DNA of 64,000 bases from Alphaproteobacteria bacterium (GTDB taxonomy: Bacteria; Pseudomonadota; Alphaproteobacteria; RF32; CAG-239). The stretch covers positions 4,802-68,801 of the forward strand of contig JAFUTN010000044.1 of NCBI GenBank assembly GCA_017484225.1, written 5' to 3'. The first letter of the stretch is position 1, and every line of letters starts with the position of its first letter. This document shows positions 8,370 to 28,864 of this stretch, one piece after another. Under the pieces are notes generated by a model, which had not been told where the DNA came from, made no database searches, and worked only from the letters and a program-made list of their open reading frames with translations. The translations under genes were made by a program, and so were the position numbers.

Positions 8370-8954
8370 CTTGATAAGCGCAAATCCGCCGATAAGCAAA
8401 ATCAAAAACAACACCGAAAGCCAGCCGAGATTCTTTTCAATAAACTCCCGCATCGGCTCGCCGAATTTGTATAACAACCATGCAATTAAATAAAAACGCA
8501 AACCGCGGGCAATTACCGAGGCCACGGTAAACACAACCAGATTAAGATGAACGGCACCGCTGGCGATAGTAATAATTTTGTAAGGAAACGGTGTAATACC
8601 GGCACCAAAAACTATCCACGCGCCGTATTGATTATACAAATCCTTAAATTCATTAAATTTAGCCATAGCCCCATAAAAATCCAATATGGGAACAGCTATC
8701 AAATCAAACCCCAATCTGCCGATAGCATAACCGAGATAAGCACCTATCACACTGCCGATTGTTGCAATACCGGCTAATTTCCAAGCTTCTTTAGGTGTTG
8801 CCAAAATCATCGGAATCAGCATAACATCAGGCGGAATCGGGAAAAATGAGCTTTCAATAAAAGCAACGGCAAACAAACAAATTAAGGCATGCCTGTTGGC
8901 AGAAAGATTAATAACCCAATCATAAATTCTGCGGACAAATTGTGTAAAGTTCAT
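8361..8954 (-). CDS. DedA/SNARE-associated family inner-membrane protein
   Basis: Polytopic membrane protein carrying the DedA-family signature region (GYAIGRLGFDLIAVPILDFYGA...). Confidence 0.6.
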   Translation of the reverse strand: MNFTQFVRRIYDWVINLSANRHALICLFAVAFIESSFFPIPPDVMLIPMILATPKEAWKLAGIATIGSVIGAYLGYAIGRLGFDLIAVPILDFYGAMAKFNEFKDLYNQYGAWIVFGAGITPFPYKIITIASGAVHLNLVVFTVASVIARGLRFYLIAWLLYKFGEPMREFIEKNLGWLSVLFLILLIGGFALIKLF

Positions 8955-9715: not shown

Positions 9716-11515
9716 CTACTCTTCACCGGACAGGTCCTTCTCTCCATGAAGAATCCGGATACTTTCTTTCGGCATATCATATTCCGACGAGAGCAAATTG
9801 TATTTTTCCGGCAAATTAGGCAAACCTTCAACACCAATCAGACGCACAAAAGTGTCATACAGCAAATCATTACTCCAATAGGCATTTTTATTGTTTTTGA
9901 GATTCTCCAGTTCTTGTTTCCGGCTGCCGGCAAACTTTGCCGATACATTCACCACAAACGGAATTCGGGCCATGCGATATGTAAAACGTGTACATTCGTG
10001 TCCGAGTTCGTTGTCGGCATCATCTCCATGGTCCGAAAAATATACCCACGCCATAAAATTAGGATAATCCCTCACCTTGTTATATATTTTTTGCAGAACA
10101 TAGTCTGTGTATAAAACACTGTTGTCATAAGTATCTATATTGCGGGTAGAACCGTAAAAATGCCGAAAATTTTTCGGATAACGATCGCGATAAGCCCCAT
10201 GGCTGCCCATTAAATGAATTACTATCAGCATTTTATCGTTGTCGTCCGCCGGCGGAATAGCATCTACTAATTTTTCATCATAATATGATGTAAAAATTTT
10301 GTCACCCGTATTCATATTCAACCAATGTTGCTCGTCAGCCAGTGAAGCCATCGTGGTAACCGGAGTTCCCATTACCTCATATTTTGACTGATTACTGAGC
10401 CAATACGTCTTAAGCCCTGCAGCCTCTGCAACCTCTATTATGGAAAAAGCATCCTTTAAATCAATATCATTATACTGATTTTTTTCACTCAGGGCATAGG
10501 TCAACGTCGGAATGGTATGGGTGTGATTTGAATAAGCGCGCTCAAAAACAACGGTATTTTCGTTTTGCGCAAATTCGCTTAACCAAGGAGTTGTCGGACG
10601 TTTATAACCATAAACATTCATGTGATCTTTGGTTTCCGACTCTCCGATTACCAAAACATAAATTCCGTTACTTTGAGAATCCAGTTGCATACGCAAAAGA
10701 TTTTTAAGCTGTGCAATACGATTTTTTTGCGATTTTTTAAAGTCGTCAAAACCATTAAGGGTAGCTTTTGTTGTTTGCACAACATTCACAACAAAACACA
10801 AATTTAATTTCGGCATTATGGAATAGGCACAGTAGCTGAGCCAAACCAGCGCAAAAGTATAGGGAATCAAGTTAAATTTTTTGCTTTTCAGCGTGCAGGC
10901 AAAGCATATATACAAAACAACGAATGCCACAATCATGACCGAACCGAACGCCCATAAATAAAGATTTTTGTCTTTCAAATAAGAGGCAATTTCATCTGGA
11001 TTTGTCTGAAAAAGCGTCAACATGATATCAGATGAAAAGATTCCGCCGTTTACTGCAGCATATCCCAAAAATAACAAGGCCGGCATAATAAAAAGCACAC
11101 AAGAAATCAAAGCAACAACGGACAATATATTTTTTACCGTTTTATCGGCACAGTGTTGAGAGGTGTAATACAAAAATGACAACACGGAAAACAAAATAAG
11201 CGCAAAGCCTATGGTATGCGTTATCTCACGTTCCATCAGTATCATATCACCCTGTAATTTCACAAATGCCGAAAGCAAATATATGCCGACAAAAACAGCA
11301 CACAGTATCAGATGTTTTTTACTGTTGTTCCACATAAATGTTAAACCGGTAAAAAGAAGCGAAAAACTGGCCACATACCCTAAATCGCGGCTATAATCAA
11401 GTGCTTCGCTTGTAAATAAGCGACATATCATTACAAAGGCAAAACACGCAAAAAAGATAAGAAAAAATTTTTTCACCCCATTTAAGGAACAATTATTTTT
11501 TATGTAGTCTAACAT
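9716..11515 (-). CDS. Phosphoethanolamine transferase (EptA/LptA-like; N-terminal 5-TM domain plus sulfatase-fold domain)
   Basis: N-terminal ~250 aa with multiple TM helices, then an alkaline-phosphatase/sulfatase superfamily domain (…VLVIGESETKDH…, …HLMGSHGAYRDRYP…). This architecture is typical of lipid A/LPS pEtN transferases. Confidence 0.7.
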   Translation of the reverse strand: MLDYIKNNCSLNGVKKFFLIFFACFAFVMICRLFTSEALDYSRDLGYVASFSLLFTGLTFMWNNSKKHLILCAVFVGIYLLSAFVKLQGDMILMEREITHTIGFALILFSVLSFLYYTSQHCADKTVKNILSVVALISCVLFIMPALLFLGYAAVNGGIFSSDIMLTLFQTNPDEIASYLKDKNLYLWAFGSVMIVAFVVLYICFACTLKSKKFNLIPYTFALVWLSYCAYSIMPKLNLCFVVNVVQTTKATLNGFDDFKKSQKNRIAQLKNLLRMQLDSQSNGIYVLVIGESETKDHMNVYGYKRPTTPWLSEFAQNENTVVFERAYSNHTHTIPTLTYALSEKNQYNDIDLKDAFSIIEVAEAAGLKTYWLSNQSKYEVMGTPVTTMASLADEQHWLNMNTGDKIFTSYYDEKLVDAIPPADDNDKMLIVIHLMGSHGAYRDRYPKNFRHFYGSTRNIDTYDNSVLYTDYVLQKIYNKVRDYPNFMAWVYFSDHGDDADNELGHECTRFTYRMARIPFVVNVSAKFAGSRKQELENLKNNKNAYWSNDLLYDTFVRLIGVEGLPNLPEKYNLLSSEYDMPKESIRILHGEKDLSGEE

Positions 11516-11582
11516 TTTATCATACCTCTGCCGAATTTACTTACGGATATTTTTACCAAAGGTATGTTCAAATTACAACAAT

Positions 11583-14399
11583 TTATTTTTCGGAAGTTTC
11601 ATAAGTATCGCCTAAATGATCTTCTGCAACTTCTTTTACTTTTTCAATAAATTTTTGTTCAAATGCTTTTCCTTTATCTGAATTAAAGTATTCATATTTA
11701 TACCACTGTTCATAAAAATTTTCGTATGGCTGAGGTATATGTGCATAAAAAATATTTATACCCTGTTTTCTGTATGCCTGCATTTTCTGTTTAAAATCAA
11801 GAATACGCGCCTGTTCATTTTTTGATATATTAACAAACAACAAAATATTATTTTTATTTTTTTGATTTAAATACTTGCCAAAATTAAGAACATCATTTGT
11901 TGAAATTTTTTCATCAACCGAACTCAATATAAATAATCGTTTGCCTGATGATAACATGACCTCAAAATTTTCAATACGCTTTTTATATCTGTCAATAAAC
12001 TTATCTTTGTCATATTGAGAACAATCCTGATCATGATTATAGTAAATACCATATTTAGAATTAATCCATAATTTATTTGTTTGATCCCACTCTAAATTGT
12101 TGAAATAATCACTAAATTTTGATTTAACCACTCGCACTGTTGAATTAAAAGAACATACACATAAGTCAAACGGACAACTAAGTTCACCTTGTTCTTTATG
12201 TGCTTTCATATTATATCTTGTTAAAACAGTTCTGGTAAAACAACATTCTCCCAAGCTTATGAAATAATTGTTAGGAAAAACAGCCTCAGAAATTTTCAGT
12301 ATTCTTTTCAAATTAGCCAAAGATTCTTGATAAATGTTCCTCTGCAACTTTTGTAAATTTTTGACTATACTCATGTAATGCTCATTAGACATTTCTATAG
12401 CATTTTTCATAGCATCTGACAAATCATTATTGGTTTTGTAACTGATAGAATTTGAATTATCAAACAAATTAACCGAAGTTTGAAATTTTTCAGCTATTAT
12501 ACAAGGAATACTAAAGCCGTATATTAACTGATAAGAACCGCTTGAACCACAACTGATGTAACGTTCATGTTGTTTATTTTCCGGATCAAATAAAGGCAAA
12601 TAAAAATCAGCCTTTTTCATTTCATTATACATATCTTTATAACTTAACCGACCCATGAAATCTATGTATGGTTTTATATGTTCGGGAACATTTAAATTGC
12701 CTGCTCTTGCTATAACCGTAACTTTAAAATTTTTAATACCTCTTTTTAAAATATTATCTATTGCATCAATCAACACAGAATGATTTTTACGTTCGCTTTC
12801 AATTTGTCCCACACATACAAATGTCGTTAAGTTATGTTTTTTTAGTCTATTAAAAGTTTCAAAAAAATGAGCATTTACCATAGACACATTTTCACTTTGG
12901 AAAATAGGAAGTTTATTTAAGGAAACAACCTTGAATTTATCGCTTTGGGGCTTAATATCTGCATATTGATCAGCATGATGACATAAAGTTAAGACCTTCC
13001 CTTTGGGAAGTTGAATATTTTCTCCAATATACTTCAAAACCGGCACAAAACCTTCATCATTAATATACACTCGGTCTGAATTGATATAAAGGTGCATATA
13101 TCTCTCTACAATATTGTGGGTGACTATTTTTAATATATCATTGCGAGACATTGCGAAGACATGAAACTTTTCATCCTTAATGCCTGCAAACGGTTCCAGA
13201 TTACTTTCTTCTTCCGTTAAACATACATCTACATTATACCCTAAATCCAAAAAATATTTAGCCATCCCCGGTAAACACTCTCCGTGAAAATAATTAAATT
13301 CTATCATTAGAACACTGTTTTCACGAACGTCGTGACATAAAAAATCATAAAATTTATCATTTTTTATTATTTTAACGTTTGGTGCCGGAAATTTATATTC
13401 GGAACAAAAAATAGGTATAAAACCAAAAAGATTATATTTTTTCTTTTCTATACATATCAAAGGTTTATCAAGATATAAATTTAAACTTTCTTCATTTTTT
13501 ATTTCTGCATATTCTTTATAAGATGAGTTTAAAGAATTCAAAACAATTATAAACTTTAGAATATATTGTTTAATTAACTCATATTTATCATTTTCTTTTG
13601 CCTTTCCAATGAATTCTATTAAAAAATGTATTCTGTCATAAATAAACAAAGCCTTGTCCTCATTATCTATTTTTTGAGACAAAATATATAAAATCAAATC
13701 ATCAAAAATAGAGCAAACATCAACTATGTGAGCAGGAGTTATTTTATGTGTTAGAGAATCATCATTATTAAAGTAGTGATAGTATACATCATCAATAATC
13801 TTGTAACTTTTTATATGACATAAAAAGTGGGCTATAAAATATAAGTCTTCGCCTAGTAAAGATTTCTTAAAACCAATTTTATTTTTCTCAACTATTTCCT
13901 TTTTATATAACGCGCTCCACCATTCATAAGTAAAGACAGCAACAATATTCCCTTTATGTTTTTTTATTATATTATTCAAAATTCCATTTTTATCAGTTTT
14001 TTTACCAGACTCGTATGCCGTATTTCCCTTAATTATATCTATCTCACCATTATTACTGTTTTGATAAAGTCTTTCATAAAAATTCTCATCTACCCAATCA
14101 TCTGCATCACAAAAAGCAAGATATTTACCTCTGGCCACATTAATTGCACAGTTTCTGGCAATAGCAGCCCCTTCATTTTTTTTATGGACAACTATTATTC
14201 TCTTATCCTTTGTTGCATATTTATCCAGAATTTGACCTGACCCATCTGAAGAACCATCATTAACACAAATTATTTCTATATTTTTAATTGTTTGTTTTAT
14301 TAAGCTGTTTAAGCATCTGCCCAAGAACTTTTCTGCGTTATAAACCGGAACTATTACACTTATAGCAACATCATCTGAGTTAGTTGAATTATTCACCAT
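11583..14399 (-). CDS. Multi-module glycosyltransferase: N-terminal GT2, internal K-Y-x-L-F-G-x-P-I-F tail repeat, then two further domains
   Basis: N-terminal SVIVPVYNAEKFL...CDADDW GT2 signature (DxD). At residues ~320-340, KKKYNLFGFIPIFCSEYKF matches the C-terminal tail repeat found on other GTs in the locus, suggesting a fusion to a downstream ~600-aa region with further transferase-like domains. Confidence 0.6.
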   Translation of the reverse strand: MVNNSTNSDDVAISVIVPVYNAEKFLGRCLNSLIKQTIKNIEIICVNDGSSDGSGQILDKYATKDKRIIVVHKKNEGAAIARNCAINVARGKYLAFCDADDWVDENFYERLYQNSNNGEIDIIKGNTAYESGKKTDKNGILNNIIKKHKGNIVAVFTYEWWSALYKKEIVEKNKIGFKKSLLGEDLYFIAHFLCHIKSYKIIDDVYYHYFNNDDSLTHKITPAHIVDVCSIFDDLILYILSQKIDNEDKALFIYDRIHFLIEFIGKAKENDKYELIKQYILKFIIVLNSLNSSYKEYAEIKNEESLNLYLDKPLICIEKKKYNLFGFIPIFCSEYKFPAPNVKIIKNDKFYDFLCHDVRENSVLMIEFNYFHGECLPGMAKYFLDLGYNVDVCLTEEESNLEPFAGIKDEKFHVFAMSRNDILKIVTHNIVERYMHLYINSDRVYINDEGFVPVLKYIGENIQLPKGKVLTLCHHADQYADIKPQSDKFKVVSLNKLPIFQSENVSMVNAHFFETFNRLKKHNLTTFVCVGQIESERKNHSVLIDAIDNILKRGIKNFKVTVIARAGNLNVPEHIKPYIDFMGRLSYKDMYNEMKKADFYLPLFDPENKQHERYISCGSSGSYQLIYGFSIPCIIAEKFQTSVNLFDNSNSISYKTNNDLSDAMKNAIEMSNEHYMSIVKNLQKLQRNIYQESLANLKRILKISEAVFPNNYFISLGECCFTRTVLTRYNMKAHKEQGELSCPFDLCVCSFNSTVRVVKSKFSDYFNNLEWDQTNKLWINSKYGIYYNHDQDCSQYDKDKFIDRYKKRIENFEVMLSSGKRLFILSSVDEKISTNDVLNFGKYLNQKNKNNILLFVNISKNEQARILDFKQKMQAYRKQGINIFYAHIPQPYENFYEQWYKYEYFNSDKGKAFEQKFIEKVKEVAEDHLGDTYETSEK

Positions 14400-14417
14400 G
14401 GCATATCCTAAAAAACA

Positions 14418-14630
14418 CTAATCTAATACTTCTCTTTGTTTAACTTTTATTTTTAAGACCAATAATCCAAATAAATAGTACTTTGTAATGTTATTTTCTG
14501 AATCAATCACTCTTTTAATAAAAGGGATTTCTAATATTTTCCATATTTTTTTATTGTTGCGAATTTTCCAGCTGTATATGGGTATAAAACACAACAATTT
14601 CAATTTAAAAGATTCTTTATTCTTAGACAT
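14418..14630 (-). CDS. 70-aa ORF made only of three copies of the glycosyltransferase tail repeat (stand-alone or remnant)
   Basis: LLCFIPIYSWKIR / KIWKILEIPFIKRV / KYYLFGLLVLKIKVK. Same repeat as the C-termini of the 17875, 27734, 28848 and 32007 genes. Confidence 0.35.
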   Translation of the reverse strand: MSKNKESFKLKLLCFIPIYSWKIRNNKKIWKILEIPFIKRVIDSENNITKYYLFGLLVLKIKVKQREVLD

Positions 14631-14832
14631 TTAGTTCTCCAAAAACCACCGTTTATTTTGTATAATGTGTGCAGTATACAAAGTTATACGATTAAGTCAA
14701 CCAATTATTGTAAGTATAAACAATTTGCATTTTTTTGTAAGTAAATATAATGTTGTTGTTTTATATCTTCAAGATTATTTCGGTGTTCGCTATAACAAGT
14801 TGAAAAAACATGAGAATGAAATAAAAATTATG

Positions 14833-14922
14833 CTCACTCAAAATCTTTCCAAAGCCGAAATTGCACGTCGTATGAACTGTTCTTGGGCCACGTTAAGCAG
14901 ATTTATCAAACAATTAGACTGA
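14833..14922 (+). CDS. 30-aa helix-turn-helix peptide resembling a transposase/resolvase N-terminal HTH (possible remnant)
   Basis: MLTQNLSKAEIARRMNCSWATLSRFIKQLD matches the LSxxEIARxLG-S-xTVxR HTH of IS-element OrfA/resolvase proteins. The call is only 30 aa and is tentative. Confidence 0.25.
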   Translation, partial: LTQNLSKAEIARRMNCSWATLSRFIKQLD

Positions 14923-14925
14923 TAA

Positions 14926-15999
14926 CTATTCTTTAATCCATTTCAGCAACCGGAATTTTCCTCTTAAGAATGACCATAAAATAAGACGTTTCCGCAAACT
15001 CAAATCTGCATATTTAATGTATTTGTTTGCCAGCAAATATTGCAGATTTTCCGTAATTTTTGCATAATTTTGCTCATCATCTTCCGGATTACAGCGTTGC
15101 ATATATTCCTTAACGCACATTCCGTAAGCATAACGCGAAGCCAGTTTTTGCAAAATCCCCTTATATTGCGGAAATTGTTCACTCAGTATGTTTATTTCCA
15201 CCGGCAAATTTTTATATTCTTCAATGCGGGCAAATGACAGCGGTTTCATTGTTTGAGAAGTGGAAATGATGCGATATGCAATCAATTTTTCTTTGCACAC
15301 AACTATTTTTTCGGCATGAAGCAAAATTTCAATATTCAGCAAAATATCATTGATTGCCGGTAAACTTTCAGCAAAACGCACCTCGTCAAACAAGCTTTTT
15401 TTATAGAGTTTGGTCCACATTAAAGTTTCTATTTTCTTTTTGCGCTCAAACTTATCCTTAAACGGTTCTGCCGACACAAAATCAAAATGTGGTTTTATGT
15501 TTGTTTTTTCAAATTCATATTTTTCATCACCGTTAAAGCGCAAATATGAACAACAGCTTACATCTGCTCCGCTTTCTGTTATATTTTTATACAGAATTTC
15601 CAAATACTGCGGGTGATATATGTCATCATTATCCAAAAACGCAATATATTGCCCCAGAGCCAAATCCAGCCCTTTATTACGACTGGCACTGCCACCGGAA
15701 TTTTTTTGCGAAAATACTTTTATGCGTTTGTCATCTTTCGCCGCGGTTTTTAAAATTTCTGCCGAATTGTCGTCGGAACCGTCATTAACACAAACCAGTT
15801 CAAAATTCGTGAAAGTTTGATTTTTTACGGATTCAAGTGTCATCTGCAAATATTTTTCCGCATTATACACCGGCATGATTACGGAGATAATCGGTTTTTC
15901 TTCCGTTTCTGTGTTATTTTGCAAAATATGAGAGTGCCTGATTAAGTTTTTCAGCCACTCTGTTAAGTGTGTAATTTTTTTGACAAAGTTCATAGCCAT
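14926..15999 (-). CDS. Family 2 glycosyltransferase
   Basis: ISVIMPVYNAEKYL ... VNDGSDDNS ... FLDNDD (DxD) GT-A signatures. Confidence 0.75.
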   Translation of the reverse strand: MAMNFVKKITHLTEWLKNLIRHSHILQNNTETEEKPIISVIMPVYNAEKYLQMTLESVKNQTFTNFELVCVNDGSDDNSAEILKTAAKDDKRIKVFSQKNSGGSASRNKGLDLALGQYIAFLDNDDIYHPQYLEILYKNITESGADVSCCSYLRFNGDEKYEFEKTNIKPHFDFVSAEPFKDKFERKKKIETLMWTKLYKKSLFDEVRFAESLPAINDILLNIEILLHAEKIVVCKEKLIAYRIISTSQTMKPLSFARIEEYKNLPVEINILSEQFPQYKGILQKLASRYAYGMCVKEYMQRCNPEDDEQNYAKITENLQYLLANKYIKYADLSLRKRLILWSFLRGKFRLLKWIKE

Positions 16000-16963
16000 T
16001 TTTTGCCACCTCTCTTGTTTGTGATAGATTTGTTATTGATTTTTCAAGCTGTGCCGCCATTTTCTCGGGATTTTCCATCGGAAACAAATAGGCACATTCC
16101 GGATTGCCGGCAAAGATTTCTCGCGGTCCTTCAGCTTCGGAAGAAACAATCGGTTTTGAGCGCATCATGGCTTCTAACAACACTATTCCGAACGGTTCAA
16201 ACCGTGAAGGCAAAACAAAAACATCTATCTTATCAAAAAATTCGTCTTTATTTTGCACCCATCCCAAAAATTTAACATCTTTTTCCAAACCGAATAATTT
16301 TACTTTAGCGGCAATACGTTCATATTCTTTTTTGTAGCTTTCCTGCACGGCTCCGCCGATAACAGCCTGAAACGGAACTTTTTTTCTTTTCAGTATTGCC
16401 AATGCATCAATAAAATCCGGAAATCCTTTCATCGGATCAAACCGTCCCATTGTGCCGATAACCGGAGGATTATGAAATTCAGTTATCGGAATAAATGCAC
16501 GTTGTTCAGATATTAAGTTAGGCACCACAAAAATATTGTCGCGCGGAAATCCTTTGTCGGAAAAAATTTCTTTTTGATACCGCGTAATCGTAAAAATTCC
16601 GTCACACTTATTAACCTGCTTATATTTCGGATTATGAGAAACACCGATAATTTTTGCATTCAGCATACGTGCAACCGCCTTAAATATCGGAATTGCTTTT
16701 TTGTTGTGGACAATAATCACATCAGGAGCATAGCTTTTCAGCTTAAAATAAAGATAGCATATCAGCAAATAATTATAATGAACAAACGGAATTTTTATGA
16801 TTTTATCCGGTTGCAGAGCCTCTAATTGCGCTTGAATTTTACACCCGTTGTCAATTACGGCAAACACCTGATGATTATACATTTTAAGCGCATTACAATA
16901 ATCTGAAAATGCCTGTTCTATTCCGCCTAAATTTCGGCTTATCATAACGTTAACCGTTTTCAT
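15914..16963 (-). CDS. GT-B (family 4-like) glycosyltransferase
   Basis: C-terminal GT4 signature ...PSRFEPFGIVLLEAMMRSKPIVSSEAEGPREI... (the E-x7-E motif region). Confidence 0.75.
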   Translation of the reverse strand: MKTVNVMISRNLGGIEQAFSDYCNALKMYNHQVFAVIDNGCKIQAQLEALQPDKIIKIPFVHYNYLLICYLYFKLKSYAPDVIIVHNKKAIPIFKAVARMLNAKIIGVSHNPKYKQVNKCDGIFTITRYQKEIFSDKGFPRDNIFVVPNLISEQRAFIPITEFHNPPVIGTMGRFDPMKGFPDFIDALAILKRKKVPFQAVIGGAVQESYKKEYERIAAKVKLFGLEKDVKFLGWVQNKDEFFDKIDVFVLPSRFEPFGIVLLEAMMRSKPIVSSEAEGPREIFAGNPECAYLFPMENPEKMAAQLEKSITNLSQTREVAKNGYELCQKNYTLNRVAEKLNQALSYFAK

Positions 16964-17859
16964 TGTCCAAAATCCTCAAGTTTACCATTCAGCAAAGCAT
17001 CCAAAAAATCACCTTTCTGAGGTTCTTTCTTGTATTTCCATGACAACTTGTGAACTGATGTTTGTTCCCTGATTTTTTTCCACTTTTTTTCATCATAAGG
17101 AACAAAATAATTTGCCTCCAATTCGTAGCAGTCATCATATATCAGCGGGACATTTGCCCACATTGCCGCACATTCGGCATTATGTTCCACCATCATATCA
17201 AAAAATATGTGATACAAAAAGTAGTCAATAAGTTTGTGTTCTTTTTTCCAATAGGCAAACAGCAAATTCTGCATATTTTTCATCAACAGGTTTCCGGCTT
17301 CCGCCTGCAAAAGCCAACTTTGATTTTTCACGTATGAATGAGTATGGTATGCAAAAAATTTTGTTTGCGTTATCTCCGGCATTAATTGAGCCGTAAGTAA
17401 TACCGTCGCATCTATCCAAATTCCGCCGTATTCCGCCAGCAACGAAACCCGTAAAATATCGGAAAAATGCGTATTTGTCATCTCGCCCGCTTGTCGGCGT
17501 TCGGCAATATATTCCGGAAAAGCGATAAATTCCGGAATATTTTTATCGGTCAAAATAATGATTTTATACTCCGGACAAAATTTGCGCACTGATTGCAAAC
17601 ATTTTTTCACAATCGGAGGCATATTTTCTTCACCTTGCAACCAACAAATCCAAATAATTTTCGGACTGTTTCCCGTAATTTCCTTTTGTTGTTCGTTTTG
17701 TAAAACATCTAAATAACGCCGTAAATATTTTTTCTCGGCATTAACAATTAAATTTTTGCGCATTTGTTTACGAACCGTCTTATTCGGATAACGCAAAACA
17801 ACCCAAGCGCGAAGCATTGTCTTTTTTATTTCCGTTGTTACGTATGCAATTTTTCCCAC
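16960..17859 (-). CDS. Putative capsular/LPS glycosyltransferase (OCH1/GT32-like 'capsular polysaccharide synthesis' family)
   Basis: IIWICWLQGEENMPPIVKKCLQSVRKF... N-terminal region typical of this sugar-transferase family. The call is motif-level only. Confidence 0.4.
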   Translation of the reverse strand: MGKIAYVTTEIKKTMLRAWVVLRYPNKTVRKQMRKNLIVNAEKKYLRRYLDVLQNEQQKEITGNSPKIIWICWLQGEENMPPIVKKCLQSVRKFCPEYKIIILTDKNIPEFIAFPEYIAERRQAGEMTNTHFSDILRVSLLAEYGGIWIDATVLLTAQLMPEITQTKFFAYHTHSYVKNQSWLLQAEAGNLLMKNMQNLLFAYWKKEHKLIDYFLYHIFFDMMVEHNAECAAMWANVPLIYDDCYELEANYFVPYDEKKWKKIREQTSVHKLSWKYKKEPQKGDFLDALLNGKLEDFGQ

Positions 17860-17874
17860 CGATAGTCCCCTTTT

Positions 17875-18900
17875 TTATAATGAAAAATCTTTTACTTTAT
17901 ACAACGGAATCACATTAAACAGCTTCACATATTTTTTTCCGCGTTTTCTTTCAATCGTCAAAAATGGTAGAAATCCGAACAAATAATATTTATGCTTGTA
18001 TTCTTTGATGCGATTGAGAAAAACCTGATAATGATTATACGGCAAAACATTTTGCACCGCACCAGCATACTTGCCCCGCAATTCTTCCGGTATGAGTTGA
18101 TAAGTATGGGCCAAATTAAAGGTGTACCAACGCCAAAATCCTTGCTTGAACGAATCATAAAGCGAACTCTTGGCAAAAATTTCGGCAATAAAATCTTTGA
18201 TTTTGATAATCTCAAAATTTTCACTGCGGCATTTAGTTGAACAAGTTTGCGGATGTTTACAATAAAAATATAAAGGCTCAGCCAAAAAATAAGCCCTGTC
18301 AATATGCGGATACAGTTCTATCAAAAACAACGCATCTTCCAAAAACGGAACTTCGTAAAACCGTATATTTTGCAAAATTTCTTTTTTATACAGCAAGCGC
18401 CAAATATGGAAGGAACTTTGGTAGATTTTGTTTCCGGCCTTTTGTAAAGACATTGCGGTATTTTTTGCTACATTTAAATATCTGATTATCTGTTTTTTGC
18501 CGTCAATATCAACATTCCATGCGTTGCACCCTACCAAAGAAACATTTTCTTTTTCCATGGCGGAAATCATTTTTTCATACATATCCGCTGCAATGTAATC
18601 ATCAGAATCCACAAAAGATATATATTGCCCCTTTGCCTTATCCAAACCCAAATTACGAGAAAAGCAGACTCCCTGATGAACGGCATTGCCAAAAAACTTT
18701 ATCCGCGCATCTTTTTTGGCATACTCTTTGCAAATTGCCTTGGAATTATCCGAACTGCAATCATCAATCAGCAAAACTTCTATATTTTCAACCGTAGAGG
18801 CTAAAATACTGTCCAAACACTTCGGCAAATACTCTTCCACATTAAAAACCGGAACAATCACCGATATCAACGGCTCCTCTTTTTTCATTAACTTCATCAT
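17875..18900 (-). CDS. Family 2 glycosyltransferase with a C-terminal tail repeat (2 copies)
   Basis: ISVIVPVFNVEEYL...IDDCSSDNS...FVDSDD. The C-terminus is KYYLFGFLPFLTIERKRGKKYVKLFNVIPLYKVK. Confidence 0.75.
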   Translation of the reverse strand: MMKLMKKEEPLISVIVPVFNVEEYLPKCLDSILASTVENIEVLLIDDCSSDNSKAICKEYAKKDARIKFFGNAVHQGVCFSRNLGLDKAKGQYISFVDSDDYIAADMYEKMISAMEKENVSLVGCNAWNVDIDGKKQIIRYLNVAKNTAMSLQKAGNKIYQSSFHIWRLLYKKEILQNIRFYEVPFLEDALFLIELYPHIDRAYFLAEPLYFYCKHPQTCSTKCRSENFEIIKIKDFIAEIFAKSSLYDSFKQGFWRWYTFNLAHTYQLIPEELRGKYAGAVQNVLPYNHYQVFLNRIKEYKHKYYLFGFLPFLTIERKRGKKYVKLFNVIPLYKVKDFSL

Positions 18901-27733: not shown

Positions 27734-28864
27734 TTATTCCGGTGTTCGCCACATTGTTTCACGCGATATTTTCATTATCTTTTTCAATATCGGCAATCCG
27801 AAAATGTAATATTTTTTCAATTCCGGATATATCTTGATTTTTAGCACCGGAATTCCGACAAAAGAAACAACTGTTTTTTGTTCGTCACAACTCATGCGAA
27901 AAAGCGGCATTCCCAAAAAATAAATTTTTGTTTTTTTAATTCCTTTTTTAATTTTCAGAAACGAAATAAATCCAAACAATTTATATTTAATGTTCGCCGT
28001 TGTTCGTGCATCATAAAAAGGATTGCGGTGCGCATATAAACAAGTAAAAAATTCTTTCACCCACATTGGATTTTCTAATTTAATCCCGAGTTCAATCGCC
28101 TCATTCAGAGGTAAAGAACAAAAATCACAACCATACAAATGCTCACAATCTGTTTTTGTTAAGCCATGATATTTTCCGTAATTTTCAAACAGTGCCTTTT
28201 TCACATCAGAAGCAACTGCATCTGCATTACTTGATGCTCCGCCGGTGCGAAAAGAAACTATTTCCGGTTCTATACTGCAAACCTTTTTACCTGCCTGTAG
28301 CATTTTCAACATAAATGCCGTATCGGCCGAAATTTTGTATTCCAAATCATAAAATCCGAGTTCTTTCATAACATCTGTTTTAATGATGTAAGTTTGATGA
28401 TTTGCCATTGACCCGAATATCAAATTGTAGTGTTCCTCGCTCGGAAAATGTGCTAAAAAAGTGCCGTCTTTTTCATCAATAATGCGAGCTGAAGCACAAC
28501 AAGCATCTGCATTTTCCCGTTCTGCTTTTTCCACCAGCAATTCAACCGCTCTGTCATTGCAATAATAATCATCGGAATTAAGACAAACCACATATTTCCC
28601 TTTTGCCTTTTTAATTCCCTTGTTCATGGCATCATAAATACCCTTATCCGGTTCGGAATAATATTTTATCAAGCCTTGTTTTTGATATTCTTCCAACATT
28701 TCAACCGTGCCATCGGTTGAAGCGCCGTCTATTACAATATGCTCAATATTTTTGTATGTTTGTTTTTGCACGCTTTCCACATTTTGCGCAAACATTTCTT
28801 TGCGTTTTGCTTTAAGCAAATTGTATGTTGCCGTAATGATGGTTATCTTAGGCTGTTTTTTCAT
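27734..28864 (-). CDS. Family 2 glycosyltransferase with a C-terminal tail repeat (3 copies)
   Basis: ITIITATYNLLK...IDGASTDG...LNSDD. The C-terminus is KIYFLGMPLFRMS...VSFVGIPVLKIKIY...KYYIFGLPILKKIMK. Confidence 0.75.
   Translation of the reverse strand: MKKQPKITIITATYNLLKAKRKEMFAQNVESVQKQTYKNIEHIVIDGASTDGTVEMLEEYQKQGLIKYYSEPDKGIYDAMNKGIKKAKGKYVVCLNSDDYYCNDRAVELLVEKAERENADACCASARIIDEKDGTFLAHFPSEEHYNLIFGSMANHQTYIIKTDVMKELGFYDLEYKISADTAFMLKMLQAGKKVCSIEPEIVSFRTGGASSNADAVASDVKKALFENYGKYHGLTKTDCEHLYGCDFCSLPLNEAIELGIKLENPMWVKEFFTCLYAHRNPFYDARTTANIKYKLFGFISFLKIKKGIKKTKIYFLGMPLFRMSCDEQKTVVSFVGIPVLKIKIYPELKKYYIFGLPILKKIMKISRETMWRTPE

What the first reader, a model, noticed from the sequence alone, without database searches (positions are those of the whole stretch)
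14400..14926. Tail-repeat-only mini-ORF plus an IS-type HTH fragment between two transferase operons, a likely recombination scar
The 526-bp gap between the 938-aa transferase and the next GT2 gene contains a 70-aa ORF (14418..14630) made only of three tail repeats. It also contains a 30-aa peptide (14833..14922) that is a textbook transposase/resolvase-type HTH (LSKAEIARRMNCSWATLSRFIK). Neither looks like a complete gene. Together they suggest that an IS element or recombinase once mediated exchange here and left the detached 3' tail of a deleted glycosyltransferase. This would be a junction between glycan-locus modules and a candidate site of serotype/antigen switching.
Basis: partly seen in the sequence, partly recalled or inferred. 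Interest (0 to 1): 0.55.

Follow-up and report, generated by a model that had tools for sequence, protein, structure and literature searches.

The report
Broken on/off switch, locked on
The gap holds the remains of a flip-able promoter switch for surface-sugar genes: a deletion removed most of its recombinase gene and one of its two flip sites, probably leaving the promoter stuck "on", and the small 70-aa ORF is a real, conserved gene rather than a leftover fragment.

Summary
Both features exist at the stated coordinates. The HTH peptide is not an IS fragment. It is the last 47 codons (14779-14919) of a 195-aa Mpi-family serine DNA invertase that is intact in other strains (L005/L006, L010-L013). 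In those strains the invertase gene lies next to a 143-bp segment bounded by perfect 14-bp inverted repeats (AAACCACCGTTTAT). The segment carries a TTGACT-16-TATACT promoter aimed at the 70-aa ORF. In the window, 502 bp are replaced by 6 nt (14772-14777). This removes invertase residues 1-148 and one repeat, so the promoter is fixed facing the 70-aa ORF and the 938-aa glycosyltransferase. Relatives with the same repeat core carry the segment in both orientations between conserved flanks (L017 vs L018), so elements of this type do invert. The 70-aa ORF is not a detached tail of a deleted gene. It belongs to a family of stand-alone ~70-aa proteins (three beta-hairpins; pN 0.19 vs pS 0.75) that is the first gene of glycosyltransferase operons in all seven loci examined, four of them behind related repeat-flanked segments. 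Gene content does differ exactly here between strains: a low-GC glycosyltransferase cassette versus a different sulfatase-family gene. This is a decayed example of a known kind of switch. The small protein family is the less expected part.

The parts
14778..14922 (+). 3' remnant of an Mpi-family serine DNA invertase gene. Codons F149-D195 occupy 14779-14919 and the stop is at 14920-14922. Only the C-terminal HTH is left. The catalytic domain (residues 1-148, including the YIRVS serine) is missing.
   Evidence: Alignment to the intact alleles L005/L006. blastn break at window 14778. Translation of the intact gene. tblastn finds only residues 144-195 anywhere in the window. NCBIfam NF009949 matches profile positions 156-195.
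14772..14777 (.). Deletion junction. Six bases (AGATTA on the + strand) stand where L005 has 502 bp (L005 8008-8509). The lost DNA is invertase codons 1-148, 46 bp upstream of the gene, and the invertase-proximal inverted repeat.
   Evidence: blastn window vs L005/L006; alignment A1.
14657..14771 (.). Interior of the formerly invertible segment, in the orientation that points its promoter at the 70-aa ORF. A ~20-bp patch near 14745-14765 differs at about ten positions from the intact alleles.
   Evidence: Colinear alignment with L005/L006. 94% identity to L010/L011 over 14638-14771. Orientation check in every fetched locus.
14673..14700 (-). Sigma-70-like promoter TTGACT-16 nt-TATACT reading towards lower coordinates, into the 70-aa ORF and the 938-aa transferase gene.
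   Evidence: Consensus scan, 10 of 12 matches. It lies inside the repeat-flanked segment in the intact alleles. The call rests on consensus and position only: the AT-rich region has no more promoter-like hits than shuffled sequence.
14643..14656 (.). The one surviving inverted-repeat arm, AAACCACCGTTTAT. Its partner is deleted, so the segment can no longer invert.
   Evidence: One match in the 64-kb window even with 2 mismatches allowed. In L005 the two arms (8497-8510 and 8626-8639) are 100% complementary and 115 nt apart.
14418..14630 (-). 70-aa gene encoding a stand-alone three-beta-hairpin 'transferase-tail' module. It is the first gene behind the switch. A GGAG Shine-Dalgarno site lies at 14637-14640, and the ORF stops 18 nt before the 938-aa gene.
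11583..14399 (-). 938-aa multidomain glycosyltransferase: GT2, a single internal tail hairpin at residues ~321-338, a GT1-like region, and DUF1796. It is the gene the locked promoter would drive.
   Evidence: Pfam; residues 300-350. No terminator-like site in 11400-15100.
11612..14637 (.). Strain-variable low-GC cassette (GC 0.28, flanks 0.37-0.38) holding the 70-aa ORF and the 938-aa gene. L010-L013 carry a different 600-aa sulfatase-family gene in this position. The two cassettes share only the last 8 codons (DTYETSEK) on one side and the switch on the other.
14665..14922 (+). 85-aa ORF that gene callers sometimes report. It is a chimera: 38 codons read antisense through the promoter segment and the junction, then the 47 invertase codons. 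It is unlikely to be a gene.
   Evidence: No Shine-Dalgarno-like sequence precedes either ATG (read).
14926..15999 (-). GT2 glycosyltransferase gene, convergent with the invertase gene. It is conserved on the invertase side of the switch in all allele types.

Best explanation
The interval is a decayed promoter-inversion (phase-variation) switch.

Ancestral state, still intact in other strains of the same uncultured gut alphaproteobacterium:
- A 195-aa Mpi-family serine invertase gene sits next to a 143-bp segment bounded by 14-bp inverted repeats.
- The segment carries a promoter. In one orientation it transcribes the cassette behind the switch: here the 70-aa gene, the 938-aa glycosyltransferase and probably the 599-aa sulfatase-family gene beyond it. 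In the other orientation it faces the invertase gene.

In the window's lineage:
- A 502-bp deletion removed the invertase catalytic domain, its upstream region and the invertase-proximal repeat.
- With one repeat left, the promoter is fixed in the ON orientation and the glycan-modifying cassette should be expressed constitutively.
- The HTH peptide is the non-functional 3' stump of the invertase gene.

The 70-aa ORF is an intact gene of the cassette. It is a stand-alone copy of a three-hairpin module that many glycosyltransferases carry at their C-terminus.

Shown: the deletion, the identity of the stump, the loss of one repeat, the orientation, alternative cassettes between strains, inversion in relatives, and conservation of the small gene.

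Inferred: that this promoter is the active one, that the intact alleles of this locus actually flip, and that the window allele is constitutively ON.
For: - Intact alleles exist. L005/L006 carry a 196-aa ORF with PF00239 plus an HTH between the same GT2 gene and the same 70-aa ORF. The flanks are 98.8-99.1% identical to the window, and 502 bp there are replaced by 6 nt here.
- Family. NF009949 'master DNA invertase Mpi family' scores 267.8 bits over the full length. Many relatives of about 70-77% identity were found, two of them named that way by NCBI.
- Repeats. L005 has perfect 14-nt arms 115 nt apart. The same arrangement is in L010-L013. The window has a single arm.
- Promoter. TTGACT-16-TATACT lies inside the segment and points at the cassette.
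- Inversion happens in this element type. L017 and L018 share flanks (94-100% identity over 100 nt, 92-95% over 300 nt). Their inner segments match at 83% only when one is reverse-complemented (48% direct). Their adjacent invertase is 70.6% identical to this one and the repeat core is identical.
- The deletion allele is not an assembly artefact. It is in at least 7 contigs from 7 samples and several assemblers.
- No other invertase copy lies in the 64-kb window.
- Literature. Mpi is a serine recombinase that inverts polysaccharide promoters, and deleting it locks the promoter states (PMC4747536, PMC10403206).
Against: - No OFF-orientation copy of this particular locus was seen. All six intact contigs are ON. 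Assemblies report only the majority orientation, so this is weak evidence either way.
- The promoter call rests on consensus and position only. The AT-rich region has as many promoter-like hits as shuffled sequence (27 vs 24.9).
- The intact invertase scores 4 bits below NCBIfam's curated cut-off (267.8 vs 272).
- The junction has a 6-nt filler, and a nearby ~20-bp patch differs from the intact alleles, so the event was not a clean deletion and its mechanism is unknown.
- Expression was not measured.
- An invertase elsewhere in the genome cannot be excluded, though it could not flip a segment with a single repeat.
Confidence: 0.8

Rival explanations
1. One reading: an IS element or transposase-type recombinase mediated gene exchange here. 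It left an IS-type HTH fragment and the detached 3' tail of a deleted glycosyltransferase.
For: The HTH reaches Pfam HTH_38 (an IS30-type HTH) at 27.1 bits against a cut-off of 27. Gene content does differ at this junction between strains. The cassette has a foreign GC content.
Against: The stump matches residues 149-195 of a resolvase/invertase-fold protein, not a transposase. IS607 scores only 20 bits. There are no terminal repeats or transposase remnants. The 70-aa ORF is a complete, conserved, stand-alone gene. In L027 a stand-alone copy sits behind a transferase that still has its own full tail.
Confidence: 0.03
2. The HTH ORF (85 aa, or the 30-aa peptide) is a new small DNA-binding regulator kept after the deletion. 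For example, it might bind the remaining repeat and tune the promoter.
For: The reading frame is open. The allele is common: at least 7 contigs against 2 intact contigs with the same cassette. The HTH is the part of a serine recombinase that recognises the site.
Against: The invertase gene's own upstream region is deleted. No Shine-Dalgarno-like sequence precedes either ATG. The first 38 codons are antisense promoter DNA and junction. All copies are near-identical, so there is no evidence of selection. Gene callers skip it in several contigs.
Confidence: 0.05
3. The 70-aa ORF is a non-functional remnant or a chance ORF, and only the 938-aa gene matters.
For: Some consensus positions are degenerate in this copy: E where the family has G in WKILGIP, and L where it has P in FGIP. 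Within this species all copies are identical, so selection cannot be measured here. One variant, at the very end of contig L033, has a stop codon.
Against: At least 25 sequence clusters of stand-alone 61-73-aa homologues were found. All seven loci examined place it first in a transferase operon, 1-18 nt before or 4 nt overlapping the next gene. For the L034/L035 pair pN is 0.19 and pS 0.75, and the small ORF is better conserved than the neighbouring GT2 (70% vs 38% amino-acid identity). The fold prediction is confident. A GGAG site lies 6 nt before the ATG.
Confidence: 0.1
4. The invertase itself produced the deletion, by recombining the repeat with a pseudo-site inside its own gene. The locking would then be a by-product of the switch's own chemistry.
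For: The left breakpoint lies at AACACCGAAA in the invertase gene. This resembles the repeat core AACCACCGTTTA and is in direct orientation to the lost arm.
Against: The junction is not the hybrid site that a serine-recombinase crossover would leave. It has a 6-nt filler and keeps AAA from the gene. A 5-nt match (CACCG) is within chance.
Confidence: 0.1

Closest known systems
Bacteroides fragilis Mpi and its invertible polysaccharide promoters
   Same: A small (~195-200 aa) serine recombinase with a C-terminal HTH. Its best NCBIfam model is the Mpi equivalog. Short inverted repeats bound a promoter-bearing segment of 100-200 bp placed in front of surface-glycan genes. Loss of the recombinase locks the promoter state (PMC4747536, PMC10403206).
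   Different: The host is an uncultured gut alphaproteobacterium, not Bacteroidales. The invertase gene sits directly beside this target. The promoter looks sigma-70-like rather than Bacteroides-type. The target appears to be a lipopolysaccharide/oligosaccharide-type transferase cluster with phosphoethanolamine-transferase-like genes, not a capsule locus. The NCBIfam score is 4 bits below the cut-off. Control of many distant loci is untested. In the window the system is broken.
Salmonella Hin / H-segment flagellar switch and its monophasic (locked) variants (from general knowledge, not tested here)
   Same: A serine invertase, a repeat-flanked promoter segment giving on/off expression of a surface antigen, and natural locked variants arising from loss of the invertase or of a site.
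   Different: The hin gene lies inside its ~1-kb invertible segment. Here the invertase gene is outside a 143-bp segment. No Fis-type enhancer was looked for.
Naturally biased or locked invertible switches, e.g. repeat variants of the Clostridioides difficile flagellar switch (PMC11463649, abstract)
   Same: Strain-to-strain changes in the switch itself alter or abolish phase variation of a surface structure.
   Different: That switch uses the tyrosine recombinase RecV (PMC8890394, abstract), and its variants involve the switch inverted repeats. Here 502 bp are lost, including the recombinase.
IS30-type (HTH_38) and IS607-type transposases
   Same: An HTH of similar sequence type. IS607 transposases also have the serine-recombinase fold.
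   Different: There is no transposase domain and no element ends. The stump matches the C-terminus of an invertase. IS30 and IS607 carry their DNA-binding domain at the N-terminus (PMC6188088 for IS607; IS30 from general knowledge).
C-terminal tails of bacterial glycosyltransferases (no curated family found)
   Same: The 70-aa protein aligns end to end with the last ~60 residues of GT2, GT8, GT1 and FUT8-like enzymes.
   Different: Here the module is a separate gene. No Pfam-A or NCBIfam model covers it. It has no significant structural match in the PDB (best E 0.16), and a literature search for the motif found nothing.

Membership tests
Mpi-family master DNA invertase (NCBIfam NF009949) | Serine-recombinase catalytic domain (PF00239) with the active-site serine | tested here: not met
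   Window: only residues 149-195 remain. The intact allele P0001/L005 has PF00239 and YIRVS(9)TDKQ. The ancestral gene meets the feature; the window copy does not.
Mpi-family master DNA invertase (NCBIfam NF009949) | C-terminal helix-turn-helix | tested here: met
   Window residues match NF009949 profile positions 156-195; Pfam HTH_38 27.1 bits and HTH_7 18.5 bits.
Mpi-family master DNA invertase (NCBIfam NF009949) | Whole-protein score at or above the curated cut-off (272 bits) | tested here: not met
   The intact allele scores 267.8 bits, 4 bits short. The window fragment scores 21.7 bits. NCBI names two relatives of 71-73% identity (P0066, P0117) as Mpi family.
Mpi-family master DNA invertase (NCBIfam NF009949) | Acts on a promoter segment bounded by short inverted repeats | tested here: inconclusive
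   The substrate architecture is present in the intact alleles. Both orientations are seen in relatives with the same repeat core. No flipped copy of this locus was seen. No biochemistry.
Mpi-family master DNA invertase (NCBIfam NF009949) | One invertase controls several distant loci ('master') | not tested
   There is only one repeat arm in the 64-kb window. The identical 14-nt core bounds unrelated segments in other metagenome contigs, some with no invertase gene immediately next to the segment (L014, L016, L019). This is suggestive only.
Functional invertible promoter (inverton) | Two inverted repeats flanking the promoter | tested here: not met
   The window has one arm (14643-14656). The partner arm lies in the 502 bp that are deleted.
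IS element / transposase remnant (IS30, IS607, ISL3 types) | Transposase catalytic domain or its remnant | tested here: not met
   No transposase family was found. IS607 scores 20 bits for the intact protein, against 267.8 for Mpi. The window has no other match to the intact invertase.
IS element / transposase remnant (IS30, IS607, ISL3 types) | Terminal inverted repeats bounding an element | tested here: not met
   In the window region only weak or short repeats were found: 10-20 nt, the longer ones at 70-92% complementarity.
Stand-alone three-hairpin 'transferase-tail' proteins (unnamed family defined here) | ~60-residue module with KLF.F.P.Y.W / WKI.G.P / KYY..G.P..K motifs covering the whole protein | tested here: met
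   phmmer hits from 3e-10 to 8e-4 to 25 representatives other than the near-identical P0122. Alignment A3 has invariant KYY and six near-invariant positions. The window ORF scores 95 bits against a profile built from an alignment that includes it.
Stand-alone three-hairpin 'transferase-tail' proteins (unnamed family defined here) | First gene of a glycosyltransferase operon, tightly followed by the next gene | tested here: met
   Window (18-nt gap) and L025, L027, L029, L031, L034, L035.

The most novel reading that the evidence does not exclude
The 70-aa gene may represent an undescribed family of small three-beta-hairpin proteins that work in trans with glycosyltransferases.

Observations behind this:
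- The same module is fused to the C-terminus of GT2, GT8, GT1 and FUT8-like enzymes.
- In the four loci whose downstream genes were read (L025, L027, L029, L031), nearly every transferase ends in a single hairpin of the same type (e.g. KLFGFIPLLSIEDK).
- The small gene is the first gene of the operon in all seven loci. In four of them (window/L005, L031, L034, L035) it follows a repeat-flanked segment or a related repeat.

The proposal: the hairpins could add to one another as strands of a shared sheet. The small protein would then act as a docking platform or membrane anchor that assembles the transferases of the operon switched ON. This would couple phase variation to the assembly of a particular enzyme set.
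Probability: 0.25. Interest if true: 0.7.

Novelty: new member of a known kind. Interest (0 to 1): 0.5.

Why it matters
It replaces a vague "recombination scar" with a concrete and testable picture. A gut alphaproteobacterium uses Mpi-type promoter inversion to vary a surface-glycan cassette. Natural populations contain both switchable alleles and alleles locked ON by deletion, and strains carry alternative cassettes behind the same switch.

The locked allele was found in more of the contigs retrieved (at least 7, against 2 intact contigs with the same cassette). If that proportion holds in unbiased sampling, it would point to selection for constant expression of this transferase in some hosts.

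The work also exposes a conserved small protein family that curated domain libraries miss. That family may explain the repeated C-terminal tails seen on many bacterial glycosyltransferases.

Tried and rejected
- IS/transposon reading. Rejected after family scans and after finding the intact alleles.
- Second copy of the repeat or of the invertase in the window. None found.
- Invertase relatives in species-representative genomes (L021-L024, 58-71% identity). None has inverted repeats of 12 nt or more in the 600 bp upstream, so they gave no information on this switch.
This was solved by first retrieving it as P0001.
- BLASTP of the 70-aa ORF against single transferases in the window gave only 8-residue matches. 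The relationship became clear only with whole-library HMMER and a profile.
- The variant P0122/L033 of the small ORF has three changes, including a stop, in the last 50 nt of a contig. It was judged uninformative.
- Literature. No paper holds the tail motifs. I recalled a B. fragilis Mpi repeat consensus (ARACGTWCGT) but could not verify it in the library, so it is not used as evidence.
- Clean site-specific or microhomology deletion. The junction does not fit either.
Full report
**What is in the sequence**

All genes around the interval are on the - strand:
- a sulfatase-family (phosphoethanolamine-transferase-like) gene at 9716-11515;
- a 938-aa multidomain glycosyltransferase at 11583-14399;
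- a 70-aa ORF at 14418-14630;
- a GT2 gene at 14926-15999, followed by more transferase genes.

GC content falls from about 0.38 to 0.25-0.30 between about 11520 and 14850.

**The HTH is the stump of a DNA invertase gene**

Looking up the exact 70-aa protein in public assemblies returned contigs of the same organism, an uncultured gut alphaproteobacterium. NCBI names the protein [quoted passage not shown].

- Two contigs (L005, L006) carry a complete 196-aa ORF between the same GT2 gene and the same 70-aa ORF. It has a Resolvase domain and an HTH, and begins MIYGYIRVSTDKQ….
- The window matches the last 47 codons. At the DNA level it differs only by one base of the stop region.
- blastn places the break precisely. 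L005 8008-8509 (502 bp) is replaced in the window by six bases (14772-14777), within flanks that are 98.8-99.1% identical.
- The intact protein's best curated family is NCBIfam NF009949, "master DNA invertase Mpi family serine-type recombinase". It scores 267.8 bits over its full length, against a cut-off of 272. IS607 scores 20 bits.
- The protein search returned about 8000 relatives (the tool's scoring cap). The 119 best after the self-hit are 69-77% identical, and NCBI names two of them Mpi-family.
- tblastn finds no other copy in the window.

**The invertase sat beside an invertible promoter**

- In L005 the invertase start codon is 46 bp from a 143-bp segment bounded by perfectly complementary 14-nt arms: AAACCACCGTTTAT at 8497-8510 and ATAAACGGTGGTTT at 8626-8639, 115 nt apart.
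- Inside the segment lies TTGACT-16-TATACT, pointing at the 70-aa ORF. That ORF starts 12 nt beyond the outer arm, behind a GGAG site.
- The same switch is in L010-L013.
- The window keeps the outer arm (14643-14656), the promoter (14673-14700, - strand) and the segment interior in the same orientation. The deletion removed the inner arm together with invertase residues 1-148.
- With one arm left the segment cannot invert, so the promoter is fixed facing the cassette.
- The deleted allele is in at least seven contigs from seven samples and several assemblers, so it is real and common.

**Do such segments really flip?**

A scan of metagenome contigs for the two arms 100-130 nt apart gave seven loci.

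- L017 and L018 have the same flanks: an invertase gene 70.6% identical to this one on one side and the same protein-coding gene on the other. Flank identity is 94-100% over 100 nt.
- Their inner segments match at 83% only when one is reverse-complemented, and at 48% in direct orientation.
- L015 and L020 repeat the L017 state.

This is direct evidence that segments bounded by this repeat core exist in both orientations in nature. For the window's own locus, all six intact contigs are in the ON orientation. Assemblies report the majority state, so inversion at this locus remains inferred.

The literature held here confirms the reference system. Mpi is a serine recombinase that inverts 13 regions in Bacteroides fragilis, including seven polysaccharide promoters, and deleting it locks the promoter states (PMC4747536, PMC10403206).

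**Gene content differs at exactly this junction**

L010-L013 have the same GT2 gene, the same invertase and the same switch. Behind the switch they carry a different 600-aa sulfatase-family gene, 26% identical to the window's 599-aa protein, and no 70-aa or 938-aa gene.

- The two arrangements diverge within about five bases of the outer repeat arm.
- They rejoin in the last eight codons (DTYETSEK) of the cassette's last gene.
- The window-specific cassette is 11612-14637, with GC 0.28 against 0.37-0.38 in the flanks.

Nothing shows that the invertase performed the exchange.

**The 70-aa ORF is a gene**

A word-indexed search found only itself. A full HMMER scan of 1.8 billion representatives found 26 hits at E <= 0.001.

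- About a third are stand-alone proteins of 67-73 aa. A few are slightly longer small proteins (86-135 aa).
- The rest are the last ~60 residues of GT2, GT8, GT1 and FUT8-like enzymes.
- A profile search added many more stand-alone members, mostly from gut Alphaproteobacteria MAGs.
- No Pfam-A or NCBIfam model covers the module.
- AlphaFold2 with this alignment predicts six strands forming three hairpins (pLDDT 87.7, pTM 0.65). There is no significant PDB match.

In six other loci the stand-alone gene is the first gene of a transferase operon, 1-13 nt before or 4 nt overlapping the next gene (L025, L027, L029, L031, L034, L035).

- In L027 it follows a transferase that still has its own complete tail, so it is not that gene's detached end.
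- For the closest pair (L034/L035), pN is 0.19 and pS 0.75. The small protein is 70% identical between them while the adjacent GT2 is only 38% identical. All 21 pairs compared show pN below pS.

**Recurrent architecture**

- L031 has a 21-nt inverted-repeat pair 113 nt apart, with TTGACT-17-TATACA inside, ending 18 nt before the small gene. By my reading, its arms match this locus's core at 11 of 14 positions.
- L035 has a 34-nt pair 86 nt apart, ending 7 nt before the small gene.
- Contig L034 begins at a related repeat sequence.

The order [quoted passage not shown] therefore recurs in four of seven loci.

In the four loci whose downstream genes were read (L025, L027, L029, L031), nearly every transferase ends in a single hairpin of the same type, such as KYKLFGILPILSIEER or YRLFGFIPLLSIDDN. 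The window's 938-aa protein carries one internally, at residues 321-338. This suggests hairpin-to-hairpin docking, but that is a hypothesis only.

**Mechanism and verdict**

The best-supported reading (confidence 0.8) is a phase-variation switch of the Mpi type that was disabled by a 502-bp deletion. The deletion leaves the promoter locked ON in front of a strain-variable, low-GC glycosyltransferase cassette whose first gene is a conserved small protein.

- Shown: the deletion, the stump's identity, the lost repeat arm, the orientation, the alternative cassettes, inversion in relatives, and selection on the small gene.
- Inferred: promoter activity, flipping at this locus, and constitutive expression.

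The deletion mechanism is unclear. There is a CACCG match near both breakpoints, but the junction has a 6-nt filler and a nearby ~20-bp divergent patch.

Promoter inversion by Mpi-type invertases is well known, and NCBI already names these recombinases in such MAGs. As an instance of that, the finding is a new member of a known kind. The small-protein family is the part that a specialist would not have predicted.

Noticed in passing
L025 4217-5846; L027 4285-7034; L029 4210-5930; L031 4224-6153; window 11583-14399 (residues 321-338) and 17875-18900: In operons led by the stand-alone three-hairpin gene, almost every transferase ends in one hairpin of the same motif (…KLFGFIPLLSIEDK, often with an acidic end). 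The window's 341-aa GT2 ends in two, and the 938-aa protein has one internally at the end of its GT2 part. The individual profile scores are weak, but the position at the extreme C-terminus is consistent.
   Followed up: partly
window 27734-33401: A second glycan locus in the window has transferases carrying the full or multiplied tail module: the 464-aa GT1 at 32007-33401 (60 bits; by eye at least four hairpin motifs), the 376-aa protein at 27734-28864 and the 362-aa protein at 28848-29936.
   Followed up: partly
L019 1-205: Here the inverted repeats extend to about 48 nt because they include the first 34 nt of two divergent GT2 genes with identical 5' ends (ATGAAGATTATGAAAAAGG…). The promoter segment between them would toggle expression between the two transferase genes rather than on/off.
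   Followed up: no
L017 1574-1724 vs L018 1720-1871: The same locus is captured in both orientations in two metagenomes. The gene on the non-invertase side encodes a protein beginning MTKLRNSTKENPISQEEALEF… of about 230 aa and unknown function.
   Followed up: partly
L007 3520-4517 (= window 14926-15999) and L033 2264-3163 (= window 16960-17859): Other strains carry inactivating mutations in neighbouring transferase genes. One is a 1-nt loss in an A6 run of the GT2 gene (frameshift). The other is a CAG-to-TAG nonsense change in the Caps_synth-family gene. The locus seems to vary by gene loss as well as by the switch.
   Followed up: partly
window 11583-11610 and L010 595-623: The two alternative cassettes end in the same eight codons (DTYETSEK, then stop), although the proteins are unrelated (a 938-aa transferase and a 600-aa sulfatase-family protein). 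The exchange boundary therefore lies inside the coding sequence.
   Followed up: partly
L011, L012, L013 position 1: At least two (L011, L012; L013 not read) of these independent contigs start at the same base inside the 600-aa sulfatase-family gene. This hints at a recurrent assembly break, i.e. a repeat or strain polymorphism at that point.
   Followed up: no
P0163 vs P0164: Two stand-alone small proteins share an identical C-terminal half (FGIPVLKRKEKENARGNVKYYLFGIPVLKIKQRYV) but have divergent N-terminal halves. This suggests recombination within the small gene.
   Followed up: no
L023 8689-9276: In one related MAG, a 195-aa ORF (function not checked) lies about 2 kb downstream of the invertase homologue. 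It is the same length as the invertase and may be a second one.
   Followed up: no
window 15914-15999: The longest ORF of the GT2 gene (357 aa) overlaps the upstream GT1 gene by 86 nt. Gene callers in other contigs use internal starts (332 or 316 aa), so the true start is probably downstream of 15999.
   Followed up: no
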